DNA of 64,000 bases from Eukaryota sp. GEM-RC1 (taxonomy: Eukaryota): NCBI GenBank assembly GCA_040285855.1, contig JAUFOQ010000003.1, forward strand, positions 1,302,001-1,366,000, given 5' to 3'. A program made the translations under genes and the position numbers. Positions 3,001 through 55,455 of the stretch are shown here, piece after piece. Each line of letters opens with the position of its first letter. Within the stretch, counting starts at the first letter, position 1. Below the pieces are notes generated by a model. It made no database searches. It was not told the origin of the DNA and worked only from the letters and a program-made list of their open reading frames with translations.

Positions 3001-3227
3001 CTCAGGTGGGTCACTTTCAAATTCCGACGAGTCAACTGACTCTTCTGTCTCAGGAACCAATGGCTCCATTCGACGGGAAGACACTTTGGAGCTAGACTTA
3101 GATCTAGTCAAAGGTTTGTTTCTACGATTAGTTTTGTTTCCCGCTTTTGGGGGGTTAGTAGTCCTTTTCTTCACCATCTTGGACAATAATTATTGATACC
3201 GTTTGGCTACAAAGGGTAGGGAAAAGA
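1..3227 (-). mobile_element. Ty3/gypsy-like LTR retrotransposon, internally deleted copy (continues beyond window start)
   Basis: Near-identical to 4062-9971 but lacks two segments (equivalent to 5234-6205 and 6445-8154) that carry the Gag knuckle, protease and RT core. Integrase core runs off the left edge. Confidence 0.9.
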
Positions 3228-3284
3228 TGTTTATAAATAAAATAATATGATCTTGTAACACTTCACTAACACCTGTGGCTAACA
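3228..3284 (-). repeat. Shared short LTR between tandem gypsy copies (TGTT...AACA, 57 bp; inner boundary uncertain, could extend to about 3194)
   Basis: Identical to 9972-10028. Starts TGTTAG on the minus strand directly after a polypurine tract (GAAAGAAGAGAAGAGG) and the integrase stop codon. TGTT/AACA terminal inverted repeat. Confidence 0.75.
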
Positions 3285-4580: not shown

Positions 4581-7500
4581 GCCAAAAGTAACCACTATTG
4601 AACAACATTTCCAAACTTCGTTTCTTGTTTGGGTGTCCTGACTGGACTAAGCCATGTAGCATGTAAAGAACTTTCTTTATTAAGCTAGATGGAATCAAAA
4701 TCTTGTTCTTTGAGTTCATGTATACATTACTCATTGTACACAAAGTTGAACCATTAAACAGTTGATCTCCTTGTTCTATCGCTTTAGATTGTTCTGACCT
4801 AATGGTGGATAACCAAGAGTCAAATAAAGGAAGTTTGTTGTCTGTTGAGAGATTACGAAGACACTTGATAGCTAATACGTTGGAATCACGTGGAAGCATC
4901 TCAACATAGTCTGCATCATCATAAAGTAAGCCTTCATGAGAAAGGGTTAAATCTTTTTTGATGGAAAGATTTGAGATCGTTAAAGATTTGATTGTTTCAA
5001 CTGGGCGTCGGTCAATAACACGTGACAACATGTCAGCCCATTGATTGTTTGTACCAGCTACATGTACTATCTCAAAATCGAACTCTGAGAAAATTGGAAT
5101 CCATCGTTTGACAATACGATTCTTTTCTGGAGCAGATATAAGATAAGCAAGGTTCCTATGATCAGTAAAGATCGTCAAGTGCCTACTTAACAGAAAACCT
5201 TCTAAACTAGATTCTGTCAGAATCAAAAGAATGGCATACAGCTCTTTCTGGATAGCTGCGCAATTCTGTTGACTATCATTGAGTAAACGGCTATAAAACG
5301 ATACAGGTCTAACTCTACGTTCTTCTAACGGAGTTCCTGGAGGAGCTGGAGGATTTTCTTCCTGCCAGATCACACCACCAACAGCAATGTCGGATGCATC
5401 TGTGGATATGATAATGTTCTTATCAGTATCAGGTAAGTCTAAAGCCATATGGTTTATAATCTCAGACTTTAGTTGAGTTAATAGAGCATCATGGTCTTTT
5501 GTCCAAACAATTTTCTTGGGTTTACCACGAGTCAGTTTATTGATTGATGCAGTCAAGTTCGAATAATTCGGAATCCATTCACGAACATAATTCAAAGCAC
5601 CAAGTAAACTTCTAACTTCAGGTAAAGTTGAAGGAGCAGGTAACTCAATCAACGCCGAAACTCTTTTATCATCTATGCAACGGGTTTTATTACAAAAGTT
5701 GCTGCCCAGAATCTTATTAGGATGTCTAGAAGTGGTGAACCTACACTTCTTCAATCCAATCCGTACTCTAAAACGTTCTGCTCGTTCCAGTACTAGATTT
5801 ATTCTTGAAATAAACTCTTCAAAGGTATTGCCTACAACAATTATATCATCAATATAAATGAAAACACCTTCGACATTGAAAATTTCCTTCATGATGTTTT
5901 GAAAAATTGCTGGTACGTTTTTCAATCCAAAACATGCTCGTTTAAAGCTAATAGACATTCCAGGTATAGACACACTGGTCTTCTCGACATCTTCTTCAGC
6001 TACATTTAGCTGCCAGAATGCTTTAGGAAGGTCAAGTGTTCCAATGAAATTAGCTTTCGAAAGAAACTCTAGAACATCACAGATCCGTGGTAAATTTGGT
6101 TTCACCGGTCTGGTATTAGCATTAATCCCATCAAGTCCACTGAAATCTCCAGTTAAACGAGGCTTACGGTGATCATTATAAACCACCAAGACTATGGGAC
6201 TGCTGAACTTACCAGTTGATGGTACGGCCCATCCTTGTCGTATAAGTTCATTAAAAATTTCTTCGGCTATACGCTGTTTTTCAGGGTTAAGCCTTCTAGG
6301 AGGACGAAATACAGTGACACTTTCATCATAGAATGGAATTGTCATGGGTGGACAATCAATACCATCAGGATGTATATCTTCTGAAAAGACTTGTTTGTAT
6401 TTACTGAGTAGGCTCAGAAGCTCCGTTCTTCTTGTAGAATCATCCAATTCTATCGTGCAACCAGAGTTGTCAATGGTTTCTTCAAACAGATCTATATCTA
6501 ATTGAGTGTTACCGTACTGATCAATAGTAAAATGTGTTGAATTTGGTTTTATTGAACATTTTGATTGAACTCTATTAATCGAAATTGATGGAGACCTCAT
6601 TCTCTCATCAAATTCACTCTCTGCATTGAGAATAGTGCTATGTTCTTTATCTAATCTAATGACTAGACCATCATCCGAAAGCAACCCCAGTTCTTCTTGC
6701 AAATCTCTACCAATGAGGAGAATTTTTGTTCCTGGAACTACTGGTAGAGTATGCTTAACATGAATCTGGTTGGCCAAGCTGCCAACGTTGAACGTCAAAA
6801 CACCTATTGCACTACCTAAGGAAGTAGCACGAATATTATTCGCTGAGATGTATTCAATACAACTATCAGTAGTTGTCATCTCACAGTAGCGTATCAAATC
6901 TTGAGAAATGACTGAACATGATGCTGCTGAGTCAAATTCTCCTACTACTGGTACATTGTTGATTAACAATCGAATACATAAAGGACCCTTACCTTTAGAA
7001 TCGAACCCTAGGTTCTGGTTGAGACTACGAATTGTTTCAACAGATGATGTACTTCTACCCTTGCTTGAATGTGTGTTCAAAGCAGCCAATGGGTTCATGT
7101 ACTTATGAGGTGTAGTGTGATTATCTCTAGATGTGTTATTTGTTGCAAGTCTGAAAATATAGTTATTCTGTTGTTTATTGGAACTAAAACGACGACTAAA
7201 AGATTGACTACGACTGTCACCTGATCTACGTTTGTTGGACTTCTTATCACTGTCAGATTGAGGTTTTGATCTACAATCAGTGGAGTAATGGCCCATTTTT
7301 CCACAGTTAAAACATTTAACCGTAGACTTAACATCTCCAGGTGTACCATGAGAAGATTGAGAATGTGGCTTGTTTGCGGTATTTGGTCGATTTCTTCTAT
7401 TTCTAGAAGGAAAACGACTGGAAGGAGTGGATAAGGACTTCACAGCTGTGGAACGCTTGTAGGTAGTCCAGATCGATCTAACTTCTTGGAAGAATTGAGG

Positions 7501-9921
7501 TAGCTTATCATCCTCAGTTTTGAGACGATGATCCCATCTAAGAACAAGTTCATTCAAAGCAATAATTCCTTTGTCAGGATTCAGTGTTTCTAACATCAAC
7601 TCGGCTACTGTGGAAGCAGGGACCTTTGTTCGGACAGTTTCATCACTCGACGTAGCTATTATCGCCATGGAACATTTGAGAACGCTAATTACGCCACGGA
7701 GGTATCGGTCAAAGCACTCAGCAGGGTCTTTGGAGCTACCCAATCTTATTTCTTTAATTGCATCAATGGCTGTTGTAGTTGATGAGTATTGACTCTTGTT
7801 AATCAATAAACGCCAGATGTTTTGTTCAAGTACCTGACTACTGTTGTTATTACCAATCAGATCTAACATTTTCCAATCATTCAAAGTCGTTTGATCTATG
7901 AAATGACTAATGCCAGCTGGATCAATTTCACACAATGCTGTCCTAGCAAGGTCGAATTTGTTCAAAGGAGTACCAATCCAGAGGTCATAATCGAAACGTT
8001 CAGTTTGTTTTCTGACATGAATGGCCCAATGAAAGAAGTCATGAATAAACTTCACAACCTCATAACGAGTGTCGTTTTTCAAGAACGGCTCTCTGTCTTT
8101 TTTCTTCTTGATCTTCTTGGGAGGAGTCACACCAGATGAGAGAATAACAGAATCATGAAGGACATTGTCAGGACGTTCATCTTCAGAGGATTGACTAAGA
8201 TCGATGTGATTTTCAATCGATGGAGACAAATCAGGAAACTTGTTTGATTGTCTATCTCTTTCTGCTTTGGTTTTGTTGGCTTTAGCAATCAACTCGTTTC
8301 TATGTCGAATTTTCGGTTCTTCGAGTTCTTTTTTCGACATGACTGTTGATTCTTGGTTCAAATCACGAGTGAAGTTCTCGGTCACACGGTAAACGTTTTC
8401 ATGTTCTTCACTGGCAACAAACCGATCAACGTCTCCAAATTCTCCATCAAACTTTCTAGTTGAGAGAATATCACGTGAACCATCAGTGAAGCGGTCAACA
8501 GATTCTGGACGGAAAGGTTCACCAGGAACGTGAGCAGAAAGGCGAGCAGTTTGACGTAGCTCTTCAGGCTTGGGAAGAAGTGTACCAACTTCTCGTAAAG
8601 CACCATGAGCAACAGGAAGGACCTTTTGAGATCCGCCAATGCCACTAAACTGTTGGACAACCACAGAACCTTCATCAGGAACAGCTAAGGTCGTGTTTGA
8701 TGCTTCAAAGGTTGACTGTGGAAGGTTTTCATATCTATGACCAACGGGAAGGTGTCTAGAACTAACAGCAACGTTGTGATACGCCTTGACTTGATTGCTC
8801 AAGCTTTGACAATACCACGCTAAGTAAGCATACGTAACGTATCTGCCATCGGCATCGAAACTAGGTTCCAATGGTTCAATCAAGATACCATGACGAGGAT
8901 CCCATGAGTAATCCGAGGGATAACGATACGTATCCCCAGCATCTCCATCATACAAATCACCCAGAAAGCGTTCAATAACTTGAGGGGAAATACCTGGAGG
9001 AACGTTCCTCAACAGATAGTGCCGTCTTTTAGGCATACGGTTGCGGATGACAGGATGCCAAGGAGCGAACTTCGCCAAGTGCCACATGTCGTAATCAGAG
9101 ATACCAACGCTGTTGTCTTGTGGACTTACCCAGGGTATGAGTCTATTTGGGATAGCATCCTTATGGAAGTGCTGTTCCTCAATAGACCCAACTAGCTTTT
9201 CGACTTTGTTGCCTCGATCTTCTGGAGAGAGACTCATCTTACGAGCTAGAAGTTCCTTTTCAACAAGAAGCTTCTGTTCTGCTTCGAGTCTTCTAGACTG
9301 CTCTTTGGCGAGAGATTCCTGTAACTTGCGAATCTCTTCAACCACTTCAGTTGACCTCTTTTGAGGAACTGGAACAACATCGGGAATGCTTTCTTTATTA
9401 AAACTATTTCTACGAGGAAGAATAGGGAGAGGAGACGCTGTTACAACAACATCATGACTCTCGGAATGCGGAGTACTGCTACTGTCAGCATCGCTTACTC
9501 TATACTTCTCTAACAAGCTTGGGATACGGTCTGAAATTACAGAGGGAGTATCCAAACCCACTTCGCCATCCTTGCGGGAAGACGAAGTCCTTCCATCCTC
9601 AGATGGGCATCCACCTTCAGGTTGAACATCTACAACTCTACGAGAAGTAGATTCACCACCCTCAGGTGAGATTTCCGTCACCTCCTTGTGGGAAGTGGGG
9701 CTTCTATCCTCAGATAGGCATCCGTCCTCAGACAGGCATCCATCCTCAGGTGGGTCACTTTCAAATTCCGACGAGTCAACTGACTCTTCTGTCTCAGGAA
9801 CCAATGGCTCCATTCGACGGGAAGACACTTTGGAGCTAGACTTAGATCTAGTCAAAGGTTTGTTTCTACGATTAGTTTTGTTTCCCGCTTTTGGGGGGTT
9901 AGTAGTCCTTTTCTTCACCAT
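4564..9921 (-). CDS. Gag-Pol polyprotein (Gag with CCHC knuckle, aspartic protease, reverse transcriptase, RNase H)
   Basis: CFNCGKMGHYSTDC; FDSAAS; LDLPKAFWQ, FGLKNVP, YIDD; TDASD, KELYAI, TDH, ADMLSR. First ATG at 9921 (the ORF track starts at an upstream TTG). Confidence 0.93.
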   Translation of the reverse strand: MVKKRTTNPPKAGNKTNRRNKPLTRSKSSSKVSSRRMEPLVPETEESVDSSEFESDPPEDGCLSEDGCLSEDRSPTSHKEVTEISPEGGESTSRRVVDVQPEGGCPSEDGRTSSSRKDGEVGLDTPSVISDRIPSLLEKYRVSDADSSSTPHSESHDVVVTASPLPILPRRNSFNKESIPDVVPVPQKRSTEVVEEIRKLQESLAKEQSRRLEAEQKLLVEKELLARKMSLSPEDRGNKVEKLVGSIEEQHFHKDAIPNRLIPWVSPQDNSVGISDYDMWHLAKFAPWHPVIRNRMPKRRHYLLRNVPPGISPQVIERFLGDLYDGDAGDTYRYPSDYSWDPRHGILIEPLEPSFDADGRYVTYAYLAWYCQSLSNQVKAYHNVAVSSRHLPVGHRYENLPQSTFEASNTTLAVPDEGSVVVQQFSGIGGSQKVLPVAHGALREVGTLLPKPEELRQTARLSAHVPGEPFRPESVDRFTDGSRDILSTRKFDGEFGDVDRFVASEEHENVYRVTENFTRDLNQESTVMSKKELEEPKIRHRNELIAKANKTKAERDRQSNKFPDLSPSIENHIDLSQSSEDERPDNVLHDSVILSSGVTPPKKIKKKKDREPFLKNDTRYEVVKFIHDFFHWAIHVRKQTERFDYDLWIGTPLNKFDLARTALCEIDPAGISHFIDQTTLNDWKMLDLIGNNNSSQVLEQNIWRLLINKSQYSSTTTAIDAIKEIRLGSSKDPAECFDRYLRGVISVLKCSMAIIATSSDETVRTKVPASTVAELMLETLNPDKGIIALNELVLRWDHRLKTEDDKLPQFFQEVRSIWTTYKRSTAVKSLSTPSSRFPSRNRRNRPNTANKPHSQSSHGTPGDVKSTVKCFNCGKMGHYSTDCRSKPQSDSDKKSNKRRSGDSRSQSFSRRFSSNKQQNNYIFRLATNNTSRDNHTTPHKYMNPLAALNTHSSKGRSTSSVETIRSLNQNLGFDSKGKGPLCIRLLINNVPVVGEFDSAASCSVISQDLIRYCEMTTTDSCIEYISANNIRATSLGSAIGVLTFNVGSLANQIHVKHTLPVVPGTKILLIGRDLQEELGLLSDDGLVIRLDKEHSTILNAESEFDERMRSPSISINRVQSKCSIKPNSTHFTIDQYGNTQLDIDLFEETIDNSGCTIELDDSTRRTELLSLLSKYKQVFSEDIHPDGIDCPPMTIPFYDESVTVFRPPRRLNPEKQRIAEEIFNELIRQGWAVPSTGKFSSPIVLVVYNDHRKPRLTGDFSGLDGINANTRPVKPNLPRICDVLEFLSKANFIGTLDLPKAFWQLNVAEEDVEKTSVSIPGMSISFKRACFGLKNVPAIFQNIMKEIFNVEGVFIYIDDIIVVGNTFEEFISRINLVLERAERFRVRIGLKKCRFTTSRHPNKILGSNFCNKTRCIDDKRVSALIELPAPSTLPEVRSLLGALNYVREWIPNYSNLTASINKLTRGKPKKIVWTKDHDALLTQLKSEIINHMALDLPDTDKNIIISTDASDIAVGGVIWQEENPPAPPGTPLEERRVRPVSFYSRLLNDSQQNCAAIQKELYAILLILTESSLEGFLLSRHLTIFTDHRNLAYLISAPEKNRIVKRWIPIFSEFDFEIVHVAGTNNQWADMLSRVIDRRPVETIKSLTISNLSIKKDLTLSHEGLLYDDADYVEMLPRDSNVLAIKCLRNLSTDNKLPLFDSWLSTIRSEQSKAIEQGDQLFNGSTLCTMSNVYMNSKNKILIPSSLIKKVLYMLHGLVQSGHPNKKRSLEMLFNSGYFWPEYES

Positions 9922-9971
9922 CTTGGACAATAATTATTGATACCGTTTGGCTACAAAGGGTAGGGAAAAGA

Positions 9972-10028
9972 TGTTTATAAATAAAATAATATGATCTTGT
10001 AACACTTCACTAACACCTGTGGCTAACA
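9972..10028 (-). repeat. 5' LTR of the gypsy array (outer end at 10028)
   Basis: Identity with 3228-3284 ends exactly after ...GGCTAACA at 10028. Confidence 0.8.
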
Positions 10029-10029
10029 A

Positions 10030-10074
10030 TACAACATTTGGTGATACAACATTTGTAACTACAACATTTGGTGA
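10030..10074. repeat. Three 15-bp-period repeats with core TACAACATTTG
   Basis: Core at 10030, 10045 and 10060, immediately outside the LTR end. Confidence 0.9.
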
Positions 10075-10193: not shown

Positions 10194-12648
10194 TTAACTA
10201 ACACTACTATATCCCCCCATCACCCTCGCAAACATCACAGCCAACGAAAACGACTCCTTATATCCAATCCCACAACAATACTCACACATCACTTCACGAA
10301 ATTCCTCCAATATTCCCAAACACTGTTCATCACAAGCCAATTCATCATTTAAATCTAGTATCGACACAACAAAAGTATTGGTCAACGACAACACATTAAA
10401 GTACTTGTCCCTATCATTCAAATGAAAACTCAAAATTTTGGCCATCAATAAATTTAAATCTTTTAACAACTGAAGTTTCAAACTCATATGTGATTGACAT
10501 TCTGATGTTGAATCATTTTGGTTCCAATGCAGTGGTACAATATCGTGGACAATTGTTAGAATCTTTGTTTCTGTCTGCATGGCAATACTATGAGTATTGT
10601 TCAAATTGTTTTCAAAATCTGTCTGAAGACCAAGTGAATTTGGTAATCTGTTGATAGATTCAGTGACCTCATGATCTGTAACTTTTTTTGATAATTTCAA
10701 ACTAGGTAAATTCGAATTTGGTTTGAGAGTATTTCGAGACAATAGATTTGGTCTCAATTTAGGCAAAGTAGTAACTTTGGTTGTTTTTTTCAGTTTTGGA
10801 ACAGGCTTGTTAAAAATTAAATCAGAATTGATGGCACTTACACTTTGACCATTGAGACACTCATCTTCATCATCATTCACAACAAAATCATTCATACTAG
10901 ACGACGCATCGTCATCATCATCAGTTTCATCATCTCCACTATCACTTCCAGAGACAACAACTTCATTATCGAATAATTCTAAAACTGAATCAGAAGTGGT
11001 ATTCAAATTTTGAATTTTTGGAACATCTTCCACCAAATCTTCCTCAATTTCTTCATTGACTGGATCAAGAACATCAACAGTTTCCATACTTTCACCAACA
11101 ATAGAAATAATATTGGACGAAAATTCATCAAAAGTTTTCAACACAGAAGGCCAATTTCTAACAATTCTTTCATCTTCTAATGGCAAAGGATAAAGAGGTT
11201 TAGTAACCGGTCGACAGGGGTGAAAAGTGGAATAATACCACTGATAAAGGTCAATTCTTGGTTTGGGAAATCTAGAAGAAATATCTAAAATTTTAATTGA
11301 GTTCCAGTTCTTCACCCTACTCAATGTAACGTACAATTGGGCATATTCCCAAAAATTTAATGATACTTCAATTCCTTCAATTGTTAGTCCCTGAGATCTA
11401 TGGACTGTTATTGCCCAACAAGAACGAAGAGGATATTGCAATCGGTATGCTATAATTACAGGCTTTTTTCTTCTCATTCAACACCTCAATTTCAAATTTA
11501 GTCGGAATAATTTTGATTGGTTCTTCGTCCCTCCCGAATCTTACATTAATGAAATGTGAAGTTTCTGAAAAATCAATAATTTTGCCTTTTGACCCATTTA
11601 CTAGGCCCAGATCTGGTTTGTTTTGAGTAAACATTACCAAACCCCCGACGACACAGTGAAATTTTTGTTCGGCAAAATCGTTTAGCCTACTTGATAATTT
11701 TTTTACATTTAAATCAACAGCCTTTTCCATTTGTTCCTCATTAGGCTTACCAAATGCCCAACTTTTAACAATTTCTGATTTAATTAAGGGTTCATTGAAC
11801 TTATCGAGGGAATGAAATTCAACATTTTCATTCCCTTGTTCACATAATAATTCAAATTGCTTTAAATTTTCGTCGGCGACATCCTTGTTTCTAGCAAATA
11901 ATTTGGTTGGACTTTCAATATTTTTGGCTAATGACTTATGTTTCAATAAAATATGTTTCATATAGTCATCAAAAAGTCCGAGACGTATTTCATTCAAAAA
12001 ATTATAAAAATTGACATCACCTTGTTGTCGGATACTTCCAGATAATTCAATAAAATTTAAATTCAAGTCCTTCCAAGACTGTGATGAAAACGTAAAGTCT
12101 GAAAGTTGAAGAACAGTCCGTGTGTTTGAATCAGATTTTACAATTGGTGCAAGTTGCAAAAAATCACCAAATATTACAACTTGAAGTCCACCAAATGGTA
12201 ACTGAGACTTCAGTAAATCTTTAAATATATCTGATGCTCTGTTGAATAGTTCAGCAGTCAACATTGAAATTTCATCAATAACAAGCATTGAATTTCGAGC
12301 ACTTATAGTTCTTAAAACAGATTTAACACTCGAAGGCATAGACCGAATGACATCAGATATTGGTTTTTCATTACGGATAAAATTATAACCAAAGAGAGAG
12401 TGTAGTGTTTGACCACCAAAGACAGTTGAAGCAACACCAGTAGTAGCAGTAAAAAAGACATGGCCACCTGGTCTCATTATCTTGGAACCCGCATTAGACC
12501 ACCACTGTTTAAGACAGTACAGTAGGTAAGACTTGCCCGATCCGGCACCACCAGTAATGAAGAAATTCTTACGCTTAGAAGGTCTTGCATGAGTAATAGC
12601 TTGGAAGACCTGAGCCTGTTCGTCTGTAAGTGTGTTGATAATGGACAT
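10194..12648 (-). CDS. PIF1-family (SF1B) DNA helicase with long acidic/unknown C-terminal extension; one frameshift near 11470
   Basis: Motif I GGAGSGKS, TATTGVAS, GQTLHS, motif II IDEISM, PFGGLQVVIFGDFLQLAP, IRQ, NGSKG; second frame continues RLQYPL...AITVHRSQGLT, QLYVTLSRV. Confidence 0.92.
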
Positions 12649-13102: not shown

Positions 13103-13709
13103 CTATATGTCGAATGTAATCTCCTTATTGCTATTTGTTATAAAATACAACTGTTCTTTATACTTAAACAATGAATCAATGAAACTCACAAACTCCTTGT
13201 CACAATCTGCATCACATTCACAAATCTCATTCACATCAAACAAGTTGAACAACGAAGACACCCTTTTAACAACAACGGACATGTCAACAAACTCCTCATC
13301 TTGACTGTTCTCACACATAAGTATTATATCTGTCAATGTTTCAGAACATCCTGTAAACTCTTGGAATACTTCAGTAAGTAACAATTCCCTACATTCATCA
13401 CCATTCAAGGATAGTAGCAAAACTGTCAATACTTTAACTAGACACTGTCGATCATTAATACTCCAAAGAAATTCGGAAATCCATGGTACCCTTTTTAAGA
13501 TCATCTGGTAAGTCAGATGTTGACACTTCCGTTATGTGGATGGATTTAGTTCTCCATGAATTGTATGTTCCATAAGGAAGAAGAACAAGTGACAAATTAA
13601 CTGCATGCTTATCAGCAAGCTTTACAACAAGTTTCATATATGTTTTGATGGTACGGGAACGACTTTCTTGTTCAGAAGTATTTCTGAGTTTGAAGATTGA
13701 GTAGGACAT
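13103..13709 (-). CDS. Hypothetical protein (two overlapping ORFs, probably one frameshifted gene) inside the PIF1/Fanzor region
   Basis: ORFs 13455-13709 and 13103-13504 overlap at an A run; no recognisable motif. Confidence 0.35.
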
Positions 13710-13856
13710 GGGAAATTCTGGTATAGACTTTATTACAGATTTCGTTTTTTAACACGTGAATTCACACACACATGTCCATTACAGTCTGTGTGGGATTTCA
13801 TTTTCCTTCCTCCTACAGTATAAATGTCGTTTGTTCTGCATCCAAACAGATGTTGT

Positions 13857-14116
13857 CCGCCATCCTGTCCTTATCTGACTCAACTTGTGACTGTTTCCAT
13901 TGCACGGTTTCGGGCTCAGTTGAGTTTAGATAAGGACAGTTCTTCTCCCTCCACTGCCGTTGCTTCTCCCTCTACTGCCGTTGCTGTGATGACTGCCGTT
14001 GCTTTCCCCACTGCCGTTGCTGTGATGATGCCGCCATTCTGTCCTTATCTGACTCAACTTGTGACTGACTCCTTTGCACGGTTTCGGGCTCAGTTGAGTT
14101 TAGATAAGGACAGTTC
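13857..14116 (+). repeat. Direct repeat of an approximately 86-bp unit, each containing a 75-nt hairpin, separated by ACTGCCGTTGCT minirepeats
   Basis: Units at 13857-13942 and 14031-14116. CTGTCCTTATCT...AGATAAGGACAG forms a perfect 12-bp inverted repeat, with further inner stems. Confidence 0.9.
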
Positions 14117-14150: not shown

Positions 14151-17100
14151 ATGAAGTACTCGTCTCCCCTGTTTATCCCTTCCCATCCTCCGTTCCCAAA
14201 AGACCTCACCGCTGATGGTGATATTGAATCCAATCCAGGACCCGTAACTCAAGAAGCCATAAACTCAGTTTATCCTCATCAATGGGTTGATGACGAAGCG
14301 ATAGTGGAGTACTGTAAAGTGATATTTCAAGAAGCAGAGTTAGACTTTGAAAGCATGTTTATCCATCCGACCACATGGCTTCAATACATTGTTTCACCAG
14401 ATGTCCCGCTAGATCAATGGTTGTTGACGAAAATTCAGCGAAATCAAAGAACAAACTCCAAATACCTCTTTGTTCCCCTTAGTGATACCATGACTAGAAA
14501 TGCTAATTATTCCAGAGAAGGTGTCACTGGTTCTCATTGGGGTTTAGCCATTATAGACTGTTGTGAAAAGGAATGGATCTTCATTGATCCAATGTTAACT
14601 AGCGAAGATATGAGTAAGTCTATGGTAAAATCAGCTGTAGACATATTATCCGAAGTACTTGTGCCATGGGGGTATGTTTTCCGTTATGTGCCTGTGACTA
14701 AAACACAGTCTGCTAACGACTGTGGAGTTTATGTCATTGCGTATATTCAAAAATATGTTGAACTTTTTAAAAGACTCACGTATGTTCCGTCTCTGATGTA
14801 TTTGGAAACTTATTTGGTCCAAGTGAACAATGAACTTCAAGCAGACATATTTCGTGAAAAAATTCTGGATGTATTGTCTCAACAAAGGACACTTTATCTG
14901 CAACAACGTCAAACCACAGTAGCTCCTATTGTACCATCGTTACCCATTCAACCTCCTGCCGGTGAAGAACGTCCAACCACTTCAATTCCTCTCACAGGTT
15001 CACGTCTTGCTAGCACTAAAACATCTACTGGTTTAAGCACTAAAAAAAGTAAGCCCAAAATTTCTGATATTCCATCACCACGAGGTTCACCTTTAATTCA
15101 ACGAAATAAATTTAGAACTACCAGCTCCCTTGTTTCAACTGGTGACACTCCAATACGAAAGACTCACCGCCGTATGTCCACATTGGAATCATCTGAAGTA
15201 ACATCATCTGAATTACCTCCATCACCATCTGAATTACCACCATCTGAACTACCACCAAAATCACAGGCCTCCATTATGTCGTATCCATTGCCAATTCAAA
15301 AGAAATTCATAATATGGAAGTAAATCTACACACTGAGCCTATCGAACAAGAAATACAAATTCAAGACTTTCTTAAATCCCCTCTTCTTTGGAATAATCTT
15401 CCCACTTTTTGTTTAATTGACGTTCAAAGTGATTTTGCCAAAAAGAAAGAATTAATGGCAGAAATGTTCAACTTGTTCAAGAAGATGATGATGACATTGA
15501 AACTGTTGAAGGTGAAGCTGAAGATCAATTCGAAGTTAAACGTGATTCTTCTGTTGATCCGATTGTATCAATTTCCATCCAGATCATTGATCACAATGAG
15601 TTTAATGAAAAACATTTATTTTCTCATGGCAATTTTGATACTACAAACTTGGATTTGTGTACTTTACATATTTCAGATAGTGAATCCAGTATGCTTAAAA
15701 ACTTCATCTCCTTCATTACTCAACATTGTCCACGATTGTTTGTGAGTTATGACTTTCACTTAGATACATTTCCCTTTCTTTTATCACGTTGTAAAGTCCT
15801 CAAAATCAATACAACGTTTACTTTTCCAGAATTTAAACCCTATATTCCCTTTTGGTTCAACAAATGGTGTAAGGAAACAACTTTTGGTCCGTTTTTTAGT
15901 CTCGATTTGAATGCTGTACTGAAGAATTTTTATGTCTTTACTGGTGGCCGTTTTTTGGAAAATGTTGTTCAAATTTTTCTTGAAATGAATAATTTTTCTA
16001 AAAATGAAACTGTCAAACGCTTGGAAGTACTTTATCATGACTCTGATCCTGATGAAGTTCAATTGGTCAATAATGTCCAAAACTTACATGGCATAATTGA
16101 CAGTATTAATGTTTTAGTTCCAGACAATCCCAAAGTGAAGGTCGATAAGATTGAAAAGAAATTTGTAAAAAATTTGGAGAAAGTAAATGAACTTTGGGCC
16201 AAGGAATCGACAAAACCGCTATTGTTGATCAACTCAATTCAACAATTACCTCTGATTGAGTACTTGTTGGCTGACCTATTGGATCCCAAAAAGCAAACAT
16301 TACGTTCAAAGTCACCAATGAAAGTGGTTAAGAAACGACTGGACAATGTTGTATCCAAAGCGAAGGTTAAATTTATTGAATCTCGTGTTAAGAGAGCTCA
16401 CCAAGTAAGAGTCCGTAGTACTCTCTTTTTGAAACATTTTTTTGTTCATAATTTTCACCATTCAGGTATTTTAGGTTACATTTAGAAGTTACTGCCTGCT
16501 GTTTCAAATGTAACTGTTAAGGAAGAAATGAATTCTGATACAGATGAGTCAACTGAAGAAGAAACAGATGTACATTCAGAGTCTATCGATGCTACTGCTC
16601 CTCCCGTTAAATTAGAAAATATTGAAGATGCGAGTGGTGAACCTGAACCTGACCTTTGGACTAGAATTCAAACTACCAAAATTGAATTGCCAGACTGGAA
16701 GAATTTTTTTACGTTGAAATCAATGGAACAAGTGTTGTCTATGATGACGATTAGGGACCACAAACTTGTAAACAATCAGAATCATATTGAGACTGTAAAA
16801 GAGTCTTTAGAAAACATAATTTCTAACACAAATGATGGCCCAACTCAAAATCAGTTTGCTCAACATTTCTTGATGCATTACATTCCTCGTTTAGAAATAG
16901 CTGCTCGATCTGTTGGACTTGATAGGATTGTGTTTCCCAGTAGTCATCGTTTATCTCCTATATTGCATTACATGGCTACAGAAATTATTACAAATTACAA
17001 GACTAACATGAGTGAACACTTTCACGAATATGTTTTTCAAGTATTTAATTTGGTTACCCTGAAAAAAGATAGACTTAACAAGCTTAGTGATAAGAATCAA

Positions 17101-19260
17101 CGACAAGAGTTGTGTACAAAGCTTAATGAAGTCAGACAGTTGATCATTAATGGGGAAATTTCAAAAATTAATTTTCAAGATGTTGAAGTGTTTCCTGATC
17201 CCAATTCTAGAGAGAGAGATGTTTATTCGGCACCCAATAAGGTAACCTTTCTACAAACTATAAACTCCCAATTCTAGACTGAGTTTACTATTTTTTAATT
17301 ATTTGTTTACTTTTTTTGAAGGTAAAATGGAGAAAACAATCTATTATGCTGAAAAAGTAGATCCTTTGAAATTCTTAAGTCATGCAGTGTATTTAAAACG
17401 TCTTGTTGAAGACTCTTGTACTGGTGTTACTGCCAATAATCCTTTTCCTCTGACAAAATCATTGATTCCTAATCATATCAGATTGGATACTACATGGTTT
17501 AAAAAAGTTTATGCATCAGAAATTAAAGGTAGCTTTGATGACGTTCGAAAAGATATTGGCACTCAGTTTTGAAACCAAAGTTTCTTCCAAAGTCATTGTC
17601 TCATGACTTCAAATACAGTTCTATTTCTACAGATGGAGTTAGCTGTAGTTTAATGATGATGCGGAAAGATCTGCTTGATGGGAGAGGAAATCCTCATAAG
17701 AAGGTGAAAGCTGTTGACTACACAGCTACTGAAAGGTACATTGATTCTTTGAGTTCCACAGAAATTCAAAACTTAAATTTGAAATCAAAAAGAATTGTTG
17801 CTATTGATCCTAATCAGCATGATTTGATGTATTGTGCTTCTTTAAAATCTAAGGAGGAAAAGAAAATCGAAGGTTTCGATACATCAGCCAATCTCAGAAG
17901 AAGAACGATTTGTCCAAAATCGTCAAAGAAAAAAAGGAAGCTTGAAAAAATTAAAAAAGGAATTGAAGGATTGGAAAGACGCACCTACTATTGACAAACC
18001 ATCAACTGTCAAGTTGAAAAATCGAGACAATTGGAAAGTATTCAGATACACTGCTGGGGAACGCAATGCCGATATTAAAAAGTCTCCATGGAAAAGAAAA
18101 AAACAAGGAAGGAAAGAAAAAGAGCTAAGAGAAAGAAGAGGAAGCTGGAGAAGAAAATAAGACGATACAATCTCCACCGTTTATCTGAATCCGAACGGTT
18201 ACAACAATATTCTACTCAATTTATTCACATTCCAGATGGCAGACGCATTGACATAAATGGGCAACAAATTTTAGATCAATGGGGCTCTAACTCGCCAGGC
18301 AGTAGATCTTGTGATTTGACTCAGTATTCTGATTTTGTTCTTGGTAAAGAAATTACCTGTTCTTTATTACGATCACCCACTACTGATCAAAGAACTACTG
18401 AAGGAATTTACGAAGAAAAGTGGTTTAGGAGGAATCGTCTCACACAGTATTCAAGAAAGGAACGAAGTGAGAAAAACATGCTTCACAGATTTGCTCTCCA
18501 ATTTGGTAACCCAGATGAAGTCGTTGTTGGGTATGGAGACTGGAACGACACTACTTTTCGTCGAAGAAGAGGTAAAGCATCTACTGTAAAAGGTGCTTCA
18601 ATTCGGAAATTATTGGGAAAATTTGGATTTAAAGTGTTCCTAGTTGATGAATTTAAGACCAGCAAATGTTGCTCTGCATGTGTTTCCAGAAACGACGAAG
18701 GTATCTGTTCCAATCCTGAAAGGATAAAAGTCACTGATCCTCATTGGAAGAAGAAGTTACAGAAGGAAGAGAAAAGAATTAAAAAAGGAAATTATGGAAC
18801 ACAATCAATTAGACAATATTGTGGAGCGTAACTTTGAAAAGAATGGACAGACCAGTTGCCATTTTCGAAAGAAAGATTGAAGAACAACAAAGTCTCACCA
18901 TGGGGCTTAGTTGAATGTGCTAAATGTCATGTCCTCTGGAATAGAGACTTCAACTCTGCTATCAATATTTACAATATTGTAAATGGAACCATTCAAGGTC
19001 AAGGTAGACCTGCCATCCTCGAGAGACCAAAATCTCAAACAACACCTGTTGTGGATGGCGGGAATACAGATCAGATTCCTAAGAAAAAGACTGTGAGTAA
19101 GGGTAAGGGTAAGGCAAAACGTCCTCCAACAACTGTCAGAGGTCCTAACAAGTGTCGTATATGTTCTCAACCTGGACATAACAAAACAACTTGTCCAAAT
19201 AAGCCTAAGAAAGATGTACCCAAGGACTCACACGTAAACCAGAAAGATCAGGAATCTTGA
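14151..19260 (+). CDS. Putative multidomain Fanzor1 polyprotein: 2A peptide, Ulp1/SENP8-like protease, PolB exonuclease-like domain, Fanzor (RuvC), CCHC knuckle; broken by frameshifts, two in-frame TAGs and/or introns
   Basis: Consecutive same-strand ORFs join at homopolymer runs. Domain motifs are listed in the sub-features. The upstream in-frame ATG at 13824 is an alternative start. Confidence 0.7.
14202..14243 (+). other. 2A / StopGo ribosomal skipping peptide
   Basis: DLTADGDIESNPGP matches the D(V/I)ExNPG|P consensus with the typical upstream L..xGD. Confidence 0.9.
14244..14880 (+). other. Ulp1/C48 cysteine protease domain (SENP8/DEN1-like)
   Basis: WVDDEAI, LFVPLSD...GSHWGLAII, FIDP, QSANDCGVYV: His-Asp-Gln-Cys catalytic motifs intact. 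Confidence 0.88.
15390..16010 (+). other. Family-B DNA polymerase 3'-5' exonuclease-like domain, probably catalytically degenerate
   Basis: Across two frames: FCLIDVQ (ExoI DxE changed to DxQ), DPIVSISI, ESSMLKNFISFITQHCPRLFVSYDFHLDTFPFLLSRC (ExoII-like), FSLDL, FLENVVQIFL. Confidence 0.6.
16290..19030 (+). other. Fanzor1 (eukaryotic TnpB homologue) domain region
   Basis: N-terminal VVKKRL...VKRAHQ...TLFLK; PFPLTKSLIPNHIRLDT; ISTDGVSCSL; RuvC-I AIDPN (D at 17806); FRYT; YGDW; RuvC-II VDEFKTSKCCSAC (E at 18649); CAKC and RuvC-III WNRDFNSAINI (D at 18946). Confidence 0.92.
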
Positions 19261-19394
19261 ATCTATGAAGTTAGCTCGTCTTAAAAGACTTTGCGAATGA
19301 GGACATTTATTTGTTCAAACTGTGGGTTTTGCTCTATGAGATCATGAAAATGTGAAGGGTTATGCCCTTATGCATTTGGAATGAAATTCACAGT
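19246..19394 (+). ncRNA. Putative Fanzor omegaRNA scaffold
   Basis: Directly 3' of the Fanzor ORF. Hand-predicted stems: GTCTT/AAGAC (19278-19289), GGACA/TGTTC (19301-19316), ACTGTGGGTTTT/GAAATTCACAGT (19319-19330 with 19383-19394), AAATGTGAAGGG/CCCTTATGCATTT (19348-19377). Confidence 0.6.
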
Positions 19395-19449
19395 AGTAAG
19401 GTAGAAGACAATTTCAATGGGAAATTTGAACTTTGAGGATGTTGATTAG
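19395..19449 (+). mobile_element. 3'-terminal coding fragment of the CRE-like non-LTR retroelement
   Basis: Reads KVEDNF...GNLNFEDVD*, compared with KVGENFQLGNLDFEDIDY* at 39837-39895 (minus strand); nucleotide similarity is also visible. Confidence 0.75.
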
Positions 19450-19793
19450 AGTGTTTAATTCTGACGCGTACGTGTTTCGTTCGAGAAAAACAATGATCAA
19501 AAAAAACTAAGTGTACAAAGTTTACTTAGTGAACTATATTTTACAGATACGGAGTCAAATAATTGAAGAAACATTGTACTACTCGAATTAAATAAATTCT
19601 AAAATAACTAAGCCTATCGAAAATTGAGCCAACAGAAGTAAATAAATACAACCTTGGCATCAGTCTAGGACCAAAACAAAAAAGAATCTAATCAGATACT
19701 AATCAACGACTAAATCTCACGTAATACAAAACCAAAAAGCATCATATTCTCAACTTCAATCAATATTGAACAGAGACATAAAAAACCACAAAA

Positions 19794-22700
19794 TCACGAA
19801 TTCCGTCCAAGTTCTTTCATTGTTTCATCCTTTAACTTGTTACAAATCTCATAAAACAGTGCAGACTCCCGATGTTCATGCTTCTTTGGAGTACTACTAT
19901 TAGACCTGGGAATGGGATGAGGTTTAGGTAAAACCAATGAGGGAGAGTGAAGAACAGAAGGAGAGGGAGCAAATCGTTCTGAGGAAGGAACCCAAGGACT
20001 TGAAGGAGATTTACTTTTCTCCAAATTAAAATTAGCCTTTTGTAATTCTCTAACTCTACTCTGCAGCTCATCAACAGCAGACCTTTTCGAGGAACGTACA
20101 CGTGACCTTGATTGGCTCACATAGGGTGTATACGAGTGGACAGCGGGTGAGCTGTCAGTTATAGACTGTACTGTAGACTCCAATTCAGAGATACGTTTTC
20201 TAGACAACTTCAACTCTTCAAGAATGGGACTAGTAACACTGTGTTCTGAACTTCTGGTACTTCTAAAGGAAGATCTTAAATCACTGATAGAATTACGTAA
20301 ATCAAGAATTACTTCATCACGGTCTTGAAGATCCTCTTTACACGTCATCAAACGACGACGGAGGATGTCAACTGTAGCGTCACTTTCACCTCTGAGAGCT
20401 TCTAAGGCATTAATTTGAGCTTTAAGATCGAAAATTTGAGAATTTAAAATTTTTGTTTGGGAAGATGTTGACTCAAGATTCACAAATACCTGGTGATAAT
20501 CGTGTTCCAGTTCATGATACTTCTCTGTCAATTTAGCTAACTGACGCGAGGAATCCTTGTGGGAAGCTAACCGTGCCTTCAAGTCTTCAATTGCCATTGA
20601 CTTCTTTTCAACAGCGGCTGTACATTCTTGAATATAAGCTAATAATTTGTTTTTGGACTCAGACAAACCTTCTACCCTGTTACATAGAGCATCAGAGTTC
20701 TTTCTTTCTTCTAGTAAAAGCTGACTTAGAGAACGATTGGAGCTTTCTAATTGTAACACTTTGGTGGATAATTCAGAAATCGAAGATGATAGTTTTAGGC
20801 TTTCAAAGCGAAGTTTCTTTTGTTCAGCGTTGTTATCATCGTTGATAGCTGATAATGATTGTTTGGAATCAGAAAGTGATGAGATTCGATCCCTTAGTGA
20901 TTGGTTTCGAGTTCGTTCCCGTTGAAGTTTCTGATCGGCATCTTCTTGAATTTTTGAAATTTCATGAGACTTTTGTTGAAGTTGATGTTTAAAGTCCAAG
21001 ATAGACTTATCATGATCCTTACGTAGTTGATTTAAATTTTCGCTTAAATTTGAGATCTCAGAGTCTTTTTCTTCGATTAAGTCCTCTAATTCAACTTTAA
21101 CTTCAGTAATTGTTTTAATTTGTTCAACAATTTCAGACAGATATTGGTTCGTTCTGTGAGCTTCAGAATCTTTTTCACTAATTGTAGATTCCAAATCTTG
21201 AATAATTGATTCATAATTTGAAAGTTGAGTTTTTAATTCAGTCAATGAGTGATCATTTCCATCAGTAATAGATTTTAATTTCAAAGAAAGAGACGAAATT
21301 TCATCGTCTTTTTCTGACAACAATTGTTCCAAATTCAGTTTTTCTTTGATAATGTGTTGAATTTTACAAGTCAACAAGGAATGAGAATTTGGTGGTAACG
21401 AAGCAGTTTCATTGGGCATTTCAGGTAAATTATCTTGAATTTCGAATAATTCGGCTTCTTTTTCAGATATTTCAGTTTTGAGATTTGAAATTGCAGACTC
21501 GTAACTATTCAATTGGTCTTTTAACTGGGAAACTGTGGCAGATTCTTCACTACGTAGTTCACTCAAATTTTGGCTCAAATTTGAAATTTCTGTATCTTTT
21601 TCTTCAATTAATTCCTCTAATTCAATTTTTACTTCAGTAACTGCTTTAATTTGATCTACAATTTCAGAAAGATGAACGTTAGTCCTGCGAGCTTCAGAAT
21701 CTTTTTCACTAATTGTGGATTCCAAATCTTGAATAATTGATTCGTGATTTGAAAGTTGAGTTTTTAATTCAGTCAATGAGTGGTCATTTACATCAGTAAT
21801 AGATTTTAATTTCAAAGAAAGAGATGAAATTTCATCGTCTTTTTCTGACAACAATTGTTCCAAATTAAGTTTTTCTTTGACCATGTGTTGAATTTTACAA
21901 GTCAATAATGAATGAGAATTTGGTGGTAACGAGGCGGTTTCATTGGGAATTTCAGGTAAATTATCTTGAATTTCTAATAATTCGGCTTCTTTTTGAGCTA
22001 TTTCAGTTTTGAGATTTGAAATTGCTGACTCATAACTATTCAATTGGTCTTTTAACTGGGAAACTGTGGCAGAATCTTCACTACGTAGTTGACTCAAATT
22101 TTGCCTCAAATTTGAAATTTCTGTATCTTTTTCTTCAAGTAACTTCTCCAACTCAGATTTAGCTTCAGTAACTGCTTTAATTTGATCTACAATTCCAGAC
22201 AACTTTTGATCGGATTGTTGAGCTTCAGAATCTTTTCACTAATTGTAGATTCCAAATCTTGAATAAGGGCTTCATAATTTAAAAGTTGAGTTTTTAATTC
22301 AGTCAATGAGTGGTCATTTCCATCAGTAATAGATTTTAATTTCAAAGAAAGAGACGAAATTTCATCGTCTTTTTCTGACAACAATTGTTCCAAATTAAGT
22401 TTTTCTTTGATAATGTGTTGAATTTTACAAGTCAACAATGAATGAGAATTTGGTGGTAACGAGGCGGTTTCATCAGGCATTTCAGGTAAATTATCTTGAA
22501 TTTCTAAAAATTCGGCTTCTTTTTGAGCTATTTCAGCTTTGAGATTGGAAATTGTAGACTCGTAACTATTCAATTGGTCTTTTAACTGGGAAACTGTTGC
22601 AGAATCTTCACTACGTAGTTGACTCAAATTTGAAATTTCTGTATCTTTTTCTTCAAGTAACTTCTCCAACTCAGTTTTAGCTTCAGTAACTGCTTTAATT

Positions 22701-25700
22701 TGATCTACAATTCCAGACAACTTTTGATCGGATTGTTGAACTTCAGAATCTTTTTCACTAATTGTAGATTCCAAATCTTGAATAAGGGCTTCATAATTTA
22801 AAAGTTGAGTTTTTAATTCAGTCAATGAGTGGTCATTTCCATCAGTAATAGATTTTAATTTCAAAGAAAGAGATGAAATTTGATCGTCTTTTTCTGACAA
22901 CAATTGTTCCAAATTCAGTTTTTCTTTGATAATGTGTTGAATTTTACCAGTCAACAATAAATGAGAATTTGGTGGTAACGAAGCGGTTTCATTGGGCATT
23001 TCAGGTAAATTATCTTGAATTTCGAATAATTCGGCTTCTTTTTGAGCTATTTCAGCTTTGAGATTGGAAATTGCAGACTCGTAACTATTCAATTGGTCTT
23101 TTAACTGGGAAACTGCGGCAGAATCTTCACTACGTAGTTGACTCAAATTTGAAATTTCTGTATCTTTTTCTCCAAGTAACTTCTCCAACTCAGTTTTAGC
23201 TTCAGTAACTGCTTTAATTTGATCTACAATTCCAGACAGCTTGTGATCGGATTGTTGAACTTCAGAATCTTTTTCACTAATTGTAGATTCCAAATCTTGA
23301 ATAAGGGCTTCATAATTTAAAAGTTGAGTTTTTAATTCAGTCAATGAGTGGTCATTTCCATCAGTAATAGATTTTAATTTCAAAGAAAGAGACGAAATTT
23401 CATCGTCTTTTTCTGACAACAATTGTTCCAAATTAAGTTTTTCTTTGATAATGTGTTGAATTTTACAAGTCAACAATGAATGAGAATTTGGTGGCAACGA
23501 AGCGGTTTCATCAGGCATTTCAGGTAAATTATCTTGAATTTCTAAAAATTCGGCTTCTTTTGAGCTATTTCAGCTTTGAGATTGGAAATTGCAGACTCGT
23601 AACTATTCAATTGGTCTTTGAACTGGGAAACTGTGGCAGAATCTTCACTACGTAGTTGACTCCAAATTTGAAATTTCTGTATCTTTTTCTTCAAGTAACT
23701 TCTCCAACTCAGTTTTAGCTTCAGTAACTGCTTTAATTTGATCTACAATTCCAGACAACTTTTGATCGGATTGTTGAACTTCAGAATCTTTTTCACTAAT
23801 TGTAGATTCCAAATCTTGAATAAGGGCTTCATAATTTAAAAGTTGAGTTTTTAATTCAGTCAATGAGTGGTCATTTCCATCAGTAATAGATTTTAATTTC
23901 AAAGAAAGAGATGAAATTTGATCGTCTTTTTCTGACAACAATTGTTCCAAATTAAGTTTTTCGTCACTATCAACGGCAATTCTTTGATTCATCGACTGTT
24001 TTTCCTTTTGAATTAATTCAGATAATTTAGAATTTTCCAGTTCCTTTTCAGCCAATTCAGCCTTTAATTCTTCTAAATCCACAGACGAATCAGTAACTAC
24101 TTGGTTTTTAAAATTTGCCAATGTAGAAATCTCTGCAACTAACCTCTGAGGAACAGTTCCTCTTGTTCTAATTTCAGTAATTAAATCAGTAAAATACTGA
24201 GAAACACTAGAAAGTTCATCTGATTGCGCTTCTAGTTTACTAACTTGGTCATCAAAATCAACGATATTTGTCTCTAAATACAGTGAATCTAATTGAGATC
24301 TGACTTGATCTAATTGTTGATCATTTGCTGAGAGAGATTGTTTTAAGAAAGTTATCACGTGTGATGGAGAAAGTGAAGAACAATCTAAAGGAGGGGTATT
24401 TGAATTGTCTTGAATTTCTAATAATTCGGCTTCTTTTTGAGCTATTTCAGCTTTGAGATTGGAAATTGCAGACTCGTAACTATTCAATTGGTCTTTTAAC
24501 TGGGAAACTGTGACAGAATCTTCACTACGTAGTTGACTCAAATTTTGACTCAAATTTGAAATTTCTGTATCTTTTTCTTCAAGTAACTTCTCCAACTCAG
24601 TTTTAGCTTCAGTAACTGCTTTAATTTGATCTACAATTCCAGACAACTTTTGATCGGATTGTTGAACTTCAGAATCTTTTTCACTAATTGTAGATTCCAA
24701 ATCTTGAATAAGGGCTTCATAATTTAAAAGTTGAGTTTTTAATTCAGTCAATGAGTGGTCATTTCCATCAGTAATAGATTTTAATTTCAAAGAAAGAGAT
24801 GAAATTTGATCGTCTTTTTCTGACAACAATTGTTCCAAATTAAGTTTTTCGTCACTATCAACGGCAATTCTTTGATTCATCGACTGTTTTTCCTTTTGAA
24901 TTAATTCAGATAATTTAGAATTTTCCAGTTCCTTTTCAGCCAATTCAGCCTTTAATTCTTCTAAATCCACAGACGAATCAGTAACTACTTGGTTTTTAAA
25001 ATTTGCCAATGTAGAAATCTCTGCAACTAACCTCTGAGGAACAGTTCCTCTTGTTCTAATTTCAGTAATTAAATCAGTAAAATACTGAGAAACACTAGAA
25101 AGTTCATCTGATTGCGCTTCTAGTTTACTAACTTGGTCATCAAAATCAACGATATTTGTCTCTAAATACAGTGAATCTAATTGAGATCTGACTTGATCTA
25201 ATTGTTGATCATTTGCTGAGAGAGATTGTTTTAAGAAAGTTATCACGTGTGATGGAGAAAGTGAAGAACAATCTAAAGGAGGGGTATTTGAATTGTCTTG
25301 AATTTCTAATAATTCGGCTTCTTTTTGAGCTATTTCAGCTTTGAGATTGGAAATTGCAGACTCGTAACTATTCAATTGGTCTTTTAACTGGGAAACTGTG
25401 ACAGAATCTTCACTACGTAGTTGACTCAAATTTTGACTCAAATTTGAAATTTCTGTATCTTTTTCTTCAAGTAACTTTTCCAACTCAGTTTTAGCTTCAG
25501 TAACTGCTTTAATTTGATCTACAATTCCAGACAACTTTTGATCGGATTGTTGAACTTCAGAATCTTTTTCACTAATTGTAGATTCCAAATCTTGAATAAG
25601 TGCTTCATAATTTGAAAGTTGAGTTTTTAATTCAGTCAATGAGTGGTCATTTCCATCAGTAATAGATTTTAATTTCAAAGAAAGAGACGAAATTTCATCG

Positions 25701-50781: not shown

Positions 50782-50794
50782 ATTTTTTCCATCA

Positions 50795-55353: not shown

Positions 55354-55455
55354 TAGGGTTGTTAAAAGGTCAGGTCAAGACCTGAACATCAGGTCAAAGG
55401 TCAGGTCAAGGTCATCAAATGAATTGATCTGTCCTGTGACCTTTTAATAACCCTA
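55354..55455. mobile_element. 102-bp hAT-like MITE with 8-bp TSD GTATAAAT
   Basis: TIR TAGGGTTGTTAAAAGGTCA...TGACCTTTTAATAACCCTA; TSD at 55346-55353 and 55456-55463; internal AGGTCA repeats. Confidence 0.88.

What the first reader, a model, noticed from the sequence alone, without database searches (positions are those of the whole stretch)
13857..14116. Twin 75-nt hairpins upstream of the 2A-protease-Fanzor ORF
Seen: two copies (13865-13939 and 14039-14113, period 174) of an extended hairpin: a perfect 12-bp outer stem, then GACTCAACT/AGTTGAGTT, then a short inner stem. The three differences within the hairpins fall in or next to the apical loop. Four ACTGCCGTTGCT minirepeats separate them. 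They lie between the divergent genes, just before a good-context ATG (gccATG, 14151). Inference: a functional RNA or ssDNA structure, such as a translational control element, precursor of small or accessory RNAs, or a replication origin or nick site used with PIF1.
Basis: partly seen in the sequence, partly recalled or inferred. Interest (0 to 1): 0.7.

Follow-up and report, generated by a model that had tools for sequence, protein, structure and literature searches.

The report
Swappable hairpin leader on Fanzor element
The two hairpins are repeat units at the very start of a mobile gene for an RNA-guided nuclease; related copies carry one to seven such units or unrelated repeats in the same slot, always in frame with a ribosome-skipping signal that likely sheds them from the protein, so they likely act as a swappable control on how much nuclease is made.

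Summary
The hairpins are real: 13865-13939 and 14039-14113, period 174, three differences, all in the loop, z about -6.5 to -7. They are not upstream of the ORF. They lie inside a stop-free frame from ATG 13824 that runs through a 2A motif into Ulp1 protease; relatives join this to a PolB-type exonuclease and Fanzor1. Of 36 proteins held with a 2A near the N-terminus, 29 fall into nine leader types, each type showing an in-frame tandem array (units 23-76 codons, 1-7 copies). Three leader types sit on more than one protease body, switching at the 2A. A second leader type keeps the hairpin arms (1 inferred change) while its 36-nt loop differs at 12-13 or more bases. This rests on back-translation; no DNA of other copies was obtainable. 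Best reading: an exchangeable leader, likely translated and shed by 2A, whose sense-strand RNA stems likely tune output. A role with PIF1 is unsupported: PIF1 has no Rep domain and a truncated unrelated gene lies between. Function is inferred, not shown. New variant of a known kind.

The parts
13865..13939 (+). Hairpin unit 1 (arms 19 and 20 nt, 36-nt loop region)
14039..14113 (+). Hairpin unit 2, three loop differences from unit 1
13940..14038 (+). 99-nt spacer with four ACTGCCGTTGCT minirepeats and three in-frame ATGs (13989, 14025, 14028); shorter by 16 codons in relatives P0016 and P0126
13824..14243 (+). 140-codon stop-free leader from ATG 13824 through both hairpins to the end of the 2A motif; likely translated
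   Evidence: same start peptide in P0014, P0016, related start in type B
13798..13823 (+). Pyrimidine-rich stretch beginning TCATTTT; resembles a parabasalid initiator (recalled, not tested); possible transcript start
   Evidence: sequence; inference
14190..14243 (+). 2A/StopGo motif ending DIESNPG|P, predicted skip between 14240 and 14241
14439..14762 (+). Ulp1 (C48) protease domain
   Evidence: Pfam PF02902 E 1.9e-5
15493..15822 (+). PolB-type 3'-5' exonuclease domain
   Evidence: Pfam PF03104 E 2.8e-8
16350..19260 (+). Fanzor1 coding region, in several frames in this copy (start approximate)
   Evidence: relative P0110 matches SpuFz1 chain 8gkh_P at E 1e-13
19255..19394 (+). Two stem-loops after the Fanzor stop; candidate omega-RNA scaffold and right end
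   Evidence: -36.1 kcal/mol, z only -1.9; inference from position
19396..19506 (+). 3' tail and A-run of an REL-type retroelement; right flank
   Evidence: score 55 vs shuffle max 25 against the copy near 39.8 kb
13106..13480 (-). 3' half of a repeated 237-aa gene (P0122 cluster), cut at about 13481; marks the probable left limit of the element
   Evidence: 93% identity over residues 113-237
10194..12648 (-). PIF1 helicase without Rep domain; neighbour, membership in the element not shown

Best explanation
The twin hairpins are two units of a copy-number-variable tandem array in the in-frame leader of a multi-copy Ulp1-exonuclease-Fanzor1 element; the leader is likely translated and likely released by the 2A motif, and the hairpins likely fold in the mRNA and damp or tune production of the nuclease polyprotein. 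Shown: the hairpins, the open frame, the 2A motif, arrays of nine types in the same slot, and leader types shared between protease bodies. Inferred: transcription from about 13800; initiation at ATG 13824 (or a later in-frame ATG); 2A skipping, which gives the protease the same N-terminus whatever lies upstream and so frees the leader to change length and sequence; exchange of leaders by recombination in the conserved 2A sequence; and ribosome slowing by 21-bp stems starting 41 nt after the start codon, with copy number as the dial. The anatomy I rate about 0.85; the RNA-level dosage function about one in two given the anatomy.
For: Open frame through both hairpins, 13 and 6 stops in the other frames. 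29 of 36 2A-bearing proteins fall into nine leader types, each type with an in-frame array; unit lengths 23-76 codons, 1-7 copies. If arrays were non-coding a type would be visible in frame about 12% of the time; 8 independent types seen against 6 untyped relatives gives p about 7e-5 (rough). Type F (P0132) has no Met in its unit and its last Met is 138 residues before the 2A end. Type B occurs on two protease bodies (3 and 8 proteins), D on three, C on two. Type A DNA against type B protein: 1 minimal change in about 35 arm bases against 12-13 in the 36-nt loop, Fisher p 6e-4; the loops are homologous (shuffle mean 20, p 0.003-0.007); the 3' arm is kept across a shift of reading frame, which points to nucleotide rather than peptide constraint; bulge positions differ between A and B, fitting a paired stem better than a fixed protein site. 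The sense strand folds 5-6 kcal/mol better than the antisense. 2A-led single ORFs are known in non-LTR elements, with 2A proposed to lower output (PMC3894237, part 1 of 3 read).
Against: No DNA of any other copy was obtained, so arm conservation and the one possible compensatory change rest on back-translation. A and B may simply have exchanged or homogenised the arms. One type-B unit has Arg-to-Pro at the arm codon I read as AGA, which would need two base changes (P0003). Two of 12 type-A units carry an Asp-to-Glu change that must break a stem pair, and one a Leu-to-Pro change that may. Hairpins are shown only for type A and inferred for B; for C-I nothing is known. Only in-frame arrays can appear in protein records, so the open-frame statistic is biased upward. 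The lowest-energy fold pairs the two units with each other (-87.4) rather than as two local hairpins (-70.7). Host intergenic DNA holds equally stable palindrome clusters. This copy's polyprotein is in several frames.
Confidence: 0.45

Rival explanations
1. The units are DNA-level promoter monomers, like the tandem monomers of mouse L1; the inverted arms are paired factor sites, and the 2A only removes whatever peptide results from starts inside the array.
For: Unrelated arrays of variable copy number at the 5' end; 8 of 9 unit types hold a Met (biased by annotation); host genes in the window have palindrome clusters 70-140 bp before their ATG; L1 monomers act additively or synergistically (PMC11602158 passages); a TCATT lies just after unit 2, 36 nt before ATG 14151.
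Against: Spacing between conserved arm blocks differs between arms and between types A and B; frames stay open across whole arrays, which an upstream promoter would not need.
Confidence: 0.2
2. The array is neutral: a small inverted-repeat remnant duplicated by slippage or unequal exchange and tolerated because the 2A sheds it; only the open frame is selected.
For: Stem-breaking changes exist; leader peptides share no sequence and are rich in Ser, Leu, Phe, Cys as pyrimidine-rich DNA would give; copy number varies freely.
Against: Arms conserved while loop and downstream linker diverge; an array recurs in nine types at the same slot.
Confidence: 0.15
3. The hairpins are single-stranded DNA signals for mobilisation in trans by an HUH transposase or helicase.
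For: The element has at least 26 near-identical RuvC-part records but no transposase in this copy; Fanzor1 rides in Helitron2 elements with terminal hairpins (PMC3627910 passages); HINEs carry central repeats (PMC4067079 passages); PIF1 lies nearby.
Against: Hairpins are about 380 bp inside the probable left limit; PIF1 has no Rep domain and its cluster has 5 members against 26; no terminal repeats or target duplication found; the array slot holds unrelated sequences in sister elements.
Confidence: 0.1
4. Each unit is a pre-miRNA-like precursor cut into about 21-nt RNAs that silence or regulate the element or host targets.
For: 75-nt hairpin, 21-bp stem with one bulge, conserved arms and variable loop.
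Against: No Rfam match; no target of the arm in the window beyond chance; 36-nt loop is long; location in a coding frame.
Confidence: 0.1

Closest known systems
Fanzor1 elements (Bao and Jurka 2013, PMC3627910; Jiang 2023, PMC10530073; SpuFz1, PDB 8gkh)
   Same: Fanzor1 nuclease with C4 zinc finger and RD motif, variable N-terminus, multi-copy, structured sequence after the stop.
   Different: Fused behind a leader array, 2A, Ulp1 and PolB-type exonuclease; no transposase seen. The words protease and exonuclease do not occur in the main text of PMC3627910 or PMC10711439, and in PMC10530073 protease occurs only in methods.
2A-led single-ORF non-LTR elements (L1Tc/Ingi; Rex1, L2, CR1, Crack; PMC3894237, PMC5814959)
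   Same: N-terminal 2A in frame with the enzymes; in L1Tc a structured 77-nt 5' element precedes it.
   Different: No reverse transcriptase; leader is a tandem array of up to about 340 codons; hairpin is a simple long stem with no Rfam ribozyme match.
Mouse L1 5' monomer arrays (PMC11602158)
   Same: Tandem units of variable number and of different types at the element's 5' end.
   Different: L1 monomers are untranslated promoter DNA; these are in frame with the ORF and followed by 2A; element class differs.
Helitron2/Helentron and HINE elements (PMC3627910, PMC4067079)
   Same: Hairpins, internal tandem repeats, captured cysteine protease, Fanzor cargo, PIF1-family helicase nearby.
   Different: No Rep-helicase fusion, no subterminal inverted repeats found, hairpins internal and coding.

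Membership tests
Fanzor1 | D ... TS-x-x-C4 zinc finger ... RD motif and likeness to known Fanzor1 | tested here: met
   IDPN 160, VDEFKTSKCCSAC 440, ECAKC 530, WNRD 538 in P0110 (D-to-TS spacing about 285, just over the published 125-275); SpuFz1 E 1e-13, PpFz1 7e-8; window matches P0110 at 84-95%
Fanzor1 | omega-RNA at the element's right end | tested here: inconclusive
   Two stem-loops 19255-19394, z -1.9
Fanzor1 | RNA-guided DNA cleavage | not testable with these tools
   needs assay
2A/StopGo | D(V/I)ExNPG|P motif in frame | tested here: met
   DIESNPGP ending 14243; invariant ESNPGP in 12 aligned relatives
2A/StopGo | Peptide-bond skipping | not testable with these tools
   needs reporter
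Helitron/Helentron | Rep (HUH) domain fused to PIF1 helicase | tested here: not met
   Pfam finds only helicase families; PIF1 and its 4 cluster mates begin at the helicase
Helitron/Helentron | Terminal hairpins and asymmetric terminal inverted repeats | tested here: not met
   No end-to-end repeat above shuffles; element ends are only inferred
MITE | Terminal inverted repeats | tested here: met
   12-bp perfect arms
MITE | Independent insertions with target-site duplications, dispersed | tested here: not met
   Both copies share flanks, no other copy in 64 kb; 12 of 12 units seen in proteins precede the 2A; genome DNA not available, so dispersal elsewhere is not excluded
Known structured RNAs, including HDV-like and hammerhead ribozymes | Match to an Rfam model | tested here: not met
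   No match over 13857-14116 at E up to 5; only two tRNAs in the window
pre-miRNA / small-RNA precursor | 60-80-nt hairpin with about 21-bp stem | tested here: met
pre-miRNA / small-RNA precursor | Discrete processed reads from the arms; Dicer/Argonaute in host | not testable with these tools
   no reads or genome available
Non-LTR retrotransposon | Reverse transcriptase in the element | tested here: not met
   None in the element's frames or in single-ORF relative P0151 by inspection; an REL tail abuts the right end

The most novel reading that the evidence does not exclude
This Fanzor family runs a cassette system: unrelated repeat arrays are swapped by recombination at the 2A coding sequence and set the dose of an RNA-guided nuclease by unit number, and in types A and B each unit is a selected RNA hairpin that is also processed into about 21-nt regulatory RNAs, so one mRNA yields leader RNAs, a disposable peptide and a protease-exonuclease-Fanzor polyprotein.
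Probability: 0.12. Interest if true: 0.85.

Novelty: new variant of a known kind. Interest (0 to 1): 0.58.

Why it matters
How eukaryotic Fanzor nucleases are expressed and kept in check in their hosts is largely open. Here a Fanzor is built like a viral polyprotein, behind a protease and an exonuclease, with a 2A that would uncouple it from an exchangeable structured leader. The family offers a natural series (nine leader types, one to seven units, shared bodies) in which leader function and copy-number effects can be tested directly, and it extends 2A use to a non-retro element of an anaerobic protist lineage.

Tried and rejected
No whole genome held. Sequencing runs: none was listed, no RNA holder listed. 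DNA of other copies: exact arm pattern 0 hits in metagenomes; 38 viral hits to a looser pattern, 0 of 38 similar to the window; Fanzor queries found no relative in viral contigs; the 2A-Ulp1 alignment gave 16 metagenome loci matching essentially the 2A motif only, none with Fanzor or PIF1, and a tandem repeat shortly before the 2A in 2 of 16, both short-period. Blind hairpin search on back-translated units: positive control (the window's own unit) failed, so the test has no power and its negatives for types B-E mean nothing. Linkage by locus-tag adjacency: 0 of 4 PIF1 tags adjacent to element tags, but the positive control also gave 0 of 14, so uninformative. Signal-peptide reading of leaders: the most hydrophobic 19-mer (0.84-2.40) lies near the 2A, not at the start, and is weak in types A and C; not adopted. 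Sigma-70 scan irrelevant to this eukaryote. Atlas search of the 237-aa neighbour gave no hit at 0.9. Longer PIF1 relatives gave no close Rep fusion. A GCCGCCAT at each unit's 5' side resembles the YY1 core; taken as coincidence, untested. Print searches: Fanzor+PIF1+Ulp1, Fanzor+non-LTR (47), Fanzor+2A peptide (70, 4 papers), Fanzor+fusion+peptidase (76): no listing describes this layout; PMC12846837 main text lacks Fanzor and Ulp1. Supplements of Fanzor and 2A catalogues were not read and may list these proteins.

Full report
Observation. The two 75-nt hairpins are at the stated coordinates, 174 bp apart, with three differences (13894, 13895, 13899) in the loop and four ACTGCCGTTGCT between them. 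Each folds far better than shuffles as DNA (z -5.5 to -6.9) and as sense RNA (-33.9 and -36.1 kcal/mol, z -6.5 and -7.0); the antisense RNA folds at -28.9 and -29.6. The duplicated block is about 98 bp with shared flanks, so the pair is a tandem duplication. There is no further copy in the window and no Rfam match. Host intergenic palindrome clusters fold as strongly.

Position. The hairpins are not upstream of the ORF. A frame from ATG 13824 runs without a stop through both hairpins, a 2A motif (ending 14243) and a Ulp1 protease domain; the period is 58 codons. Downstream lie a PolB-type exonuclease domain and a Fanzor1 (relative P0110 matches SpuFz1 at E 1e-13). This copy is in several frames, from decay or assembly error (not tested). 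Overlapping relatives show one polyprotein: P0020 joins 2A, Ulp1, exonuclease and the Fanzor start; P0146 joins the Fanzor start to RuvC-I; P0151 is one 1473-aa frame with leader, 2A, exonuclease and Fanzor but no Ulp1 (by inspection). All 12 hits of the first search are labelled Eukaryota sp. GEM-RC1, a free-living anaerobic metamonad (PMC11316075, passages); I infer a host of that kind.

The family. Of the proteins held (P0001-P0160), 36 have a 2A motif within the first 400 residues; 21 show a tandem array at my threshold, 29 fall into nine leader types and 7 are untyped, one of them (P0149) unrelated. Type A, the window's, occurs with 1, 1, 2, 2, 3 and 3 units and spacers giving periods of 58 or 42 codons. 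Type B has a 38-codon unit in 1 to 7 copies; C 33, D 27, E 76, F 27, G 23, H about 31-35, I about 28-31 codons. Every type is in frame with the 2A. Allowing for the fact that only open arrays show in protein records, 8 independent visible types against 6 untyped relatives at about 12% chance each gives p about 7e-5, a rough figure. Types B, C and D each occur on two or three different protease bodies with the switch at the 2A, which I read as leader exchange by recombination in the conserved 2A sequence.

Is the stem selected? No DNA of other copies could be had. Comparing window DNA with the type B peptide, the arms need 1 change in about 35 bases, plus a 2-base loss and a 2-base gain in the 3' arm that keep its length and the frame; the loop is 36 nt in both and needs at least 12-13 changes (Fisher p 6e-4). 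The 3' arm is kept although read in another frame, so the constraint is likely on nucleotides. The one 5'-arm change faces the changed part of the 3' arm and can pair, but third positions are unseen. Against: 2 of 12 type-A units carry a change that must break a pair and 1 one that may; one of 27 type-B units has Arg-to-Pro at an arm codon. A blind search for stems in the other types failed its positive control, so they are unknown.

PIF1 and the ends. Between PIF1 and the array lies the 3' half of an unrelated 237-aa gene with four intact relatives, cut at about 13481; I take that as the probable left limit. On the right, two stem-loops (19255-19394, z -1.9) follow the stop, then the tail of an REL-type retroelement. 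No terminal repeat or target duplication was found. PIF1 has no Rep domain and 5 cluster members against 26 for the RuvC part. A locus-tag test of linkage failed its control. An origin shared with PIF1 is thus unsupported but not excluded; how the element moves is not resolved.

Mechanism. Most likely the mRNA starts near 13800, ribosomes initiate at 13824, read through the array and skip at the 2A, giving the protease a fixed N-terminus. That frees the leader to vary, provided it stays open. The conserved stems would fold in the mRNA and slow ribosomes, lowering output of a DNA-cutting protein in proportion to unit number. Skipping follows from the motif (PMC3894237, part 1 of 3 read); start site, translation and dosage effect are inferred. 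Confidence 0.45; rivals are promoter monomers 0.2, neutral array 0.15, mobilisation signal 0.1, small-RNA precursor 0.1.

Comparison and novelty. The nuclease is a Fanzor1 by sequence; the leader works like the 2A-led start of L1Tc (PMC5814959, passages) combined with the variable 5' arrays of mouse L1 (PMC11602158, passages), but the element has no reverse transcriptase and fails the Helitron tests (PMC3627910 and PMC4067079, passages; PMC10288648, passages). Four print searches (listings only) and term searches in PMC10711439, PMC10530073 and PMC12846837 found no description of this layout; supplements were not read. Earlier AI notes on 2A leaders in Helitrons and LINEs are leads only. Verdict: new variant of a known kind, interest 0.58.

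Noticed in passing
window 30136-30208 and 31046-31110; also 49851-49945, 50653-50755, 55342-55467: Clusters of short palindromes (CAACACGTGTTG repeated before each of two divergent host genes; other motifs elsewhere) that fold as strongly as the finding's hairpins; promoter elements or ends of small elements.
   Followed up: no
window 1-10032: Tandem Gypsy-type LTR retroelement copies (gag, protease, RT, RNase H, integrase), with a 132-bp repeat at 3157-3288 and 9901-10032.
   Followed up: no
window 19396-19506, 37842-38224, 39837-40418, 50786-51319, 62647-62841: Five remnants of the 3' end of REL-type retroelements; one abuts the Fanzor right end.
   Followed up: partly
window 62286-63845: Decayed second copy of the PIF1 gene's 3' part, 74-82% identical, interrupted by an REL remnant.
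   Followed up: partly
protein P0151 (no locus): Single 1473-aa frame: 111-aa leader, 2A, PolB-type exonuclease, Fanzor; no Ulp1, no array.
   Followed up: partly
proteins P0006, P0007, P0022, P0034, P0036: Element subfamily with two tandem Ulp1-like domains after the 2A.
   Followed up: no
window 13509-13818: GTAAGT at about 13509 and a pyrimidine tract ending CAG at 13818 could bound an intron just before ATG 13824; untested.
   Followed up: no
window 19794-27433: Host coiled-coil gene built of 519-888-bp near-identical repeats.
   Followed up: no
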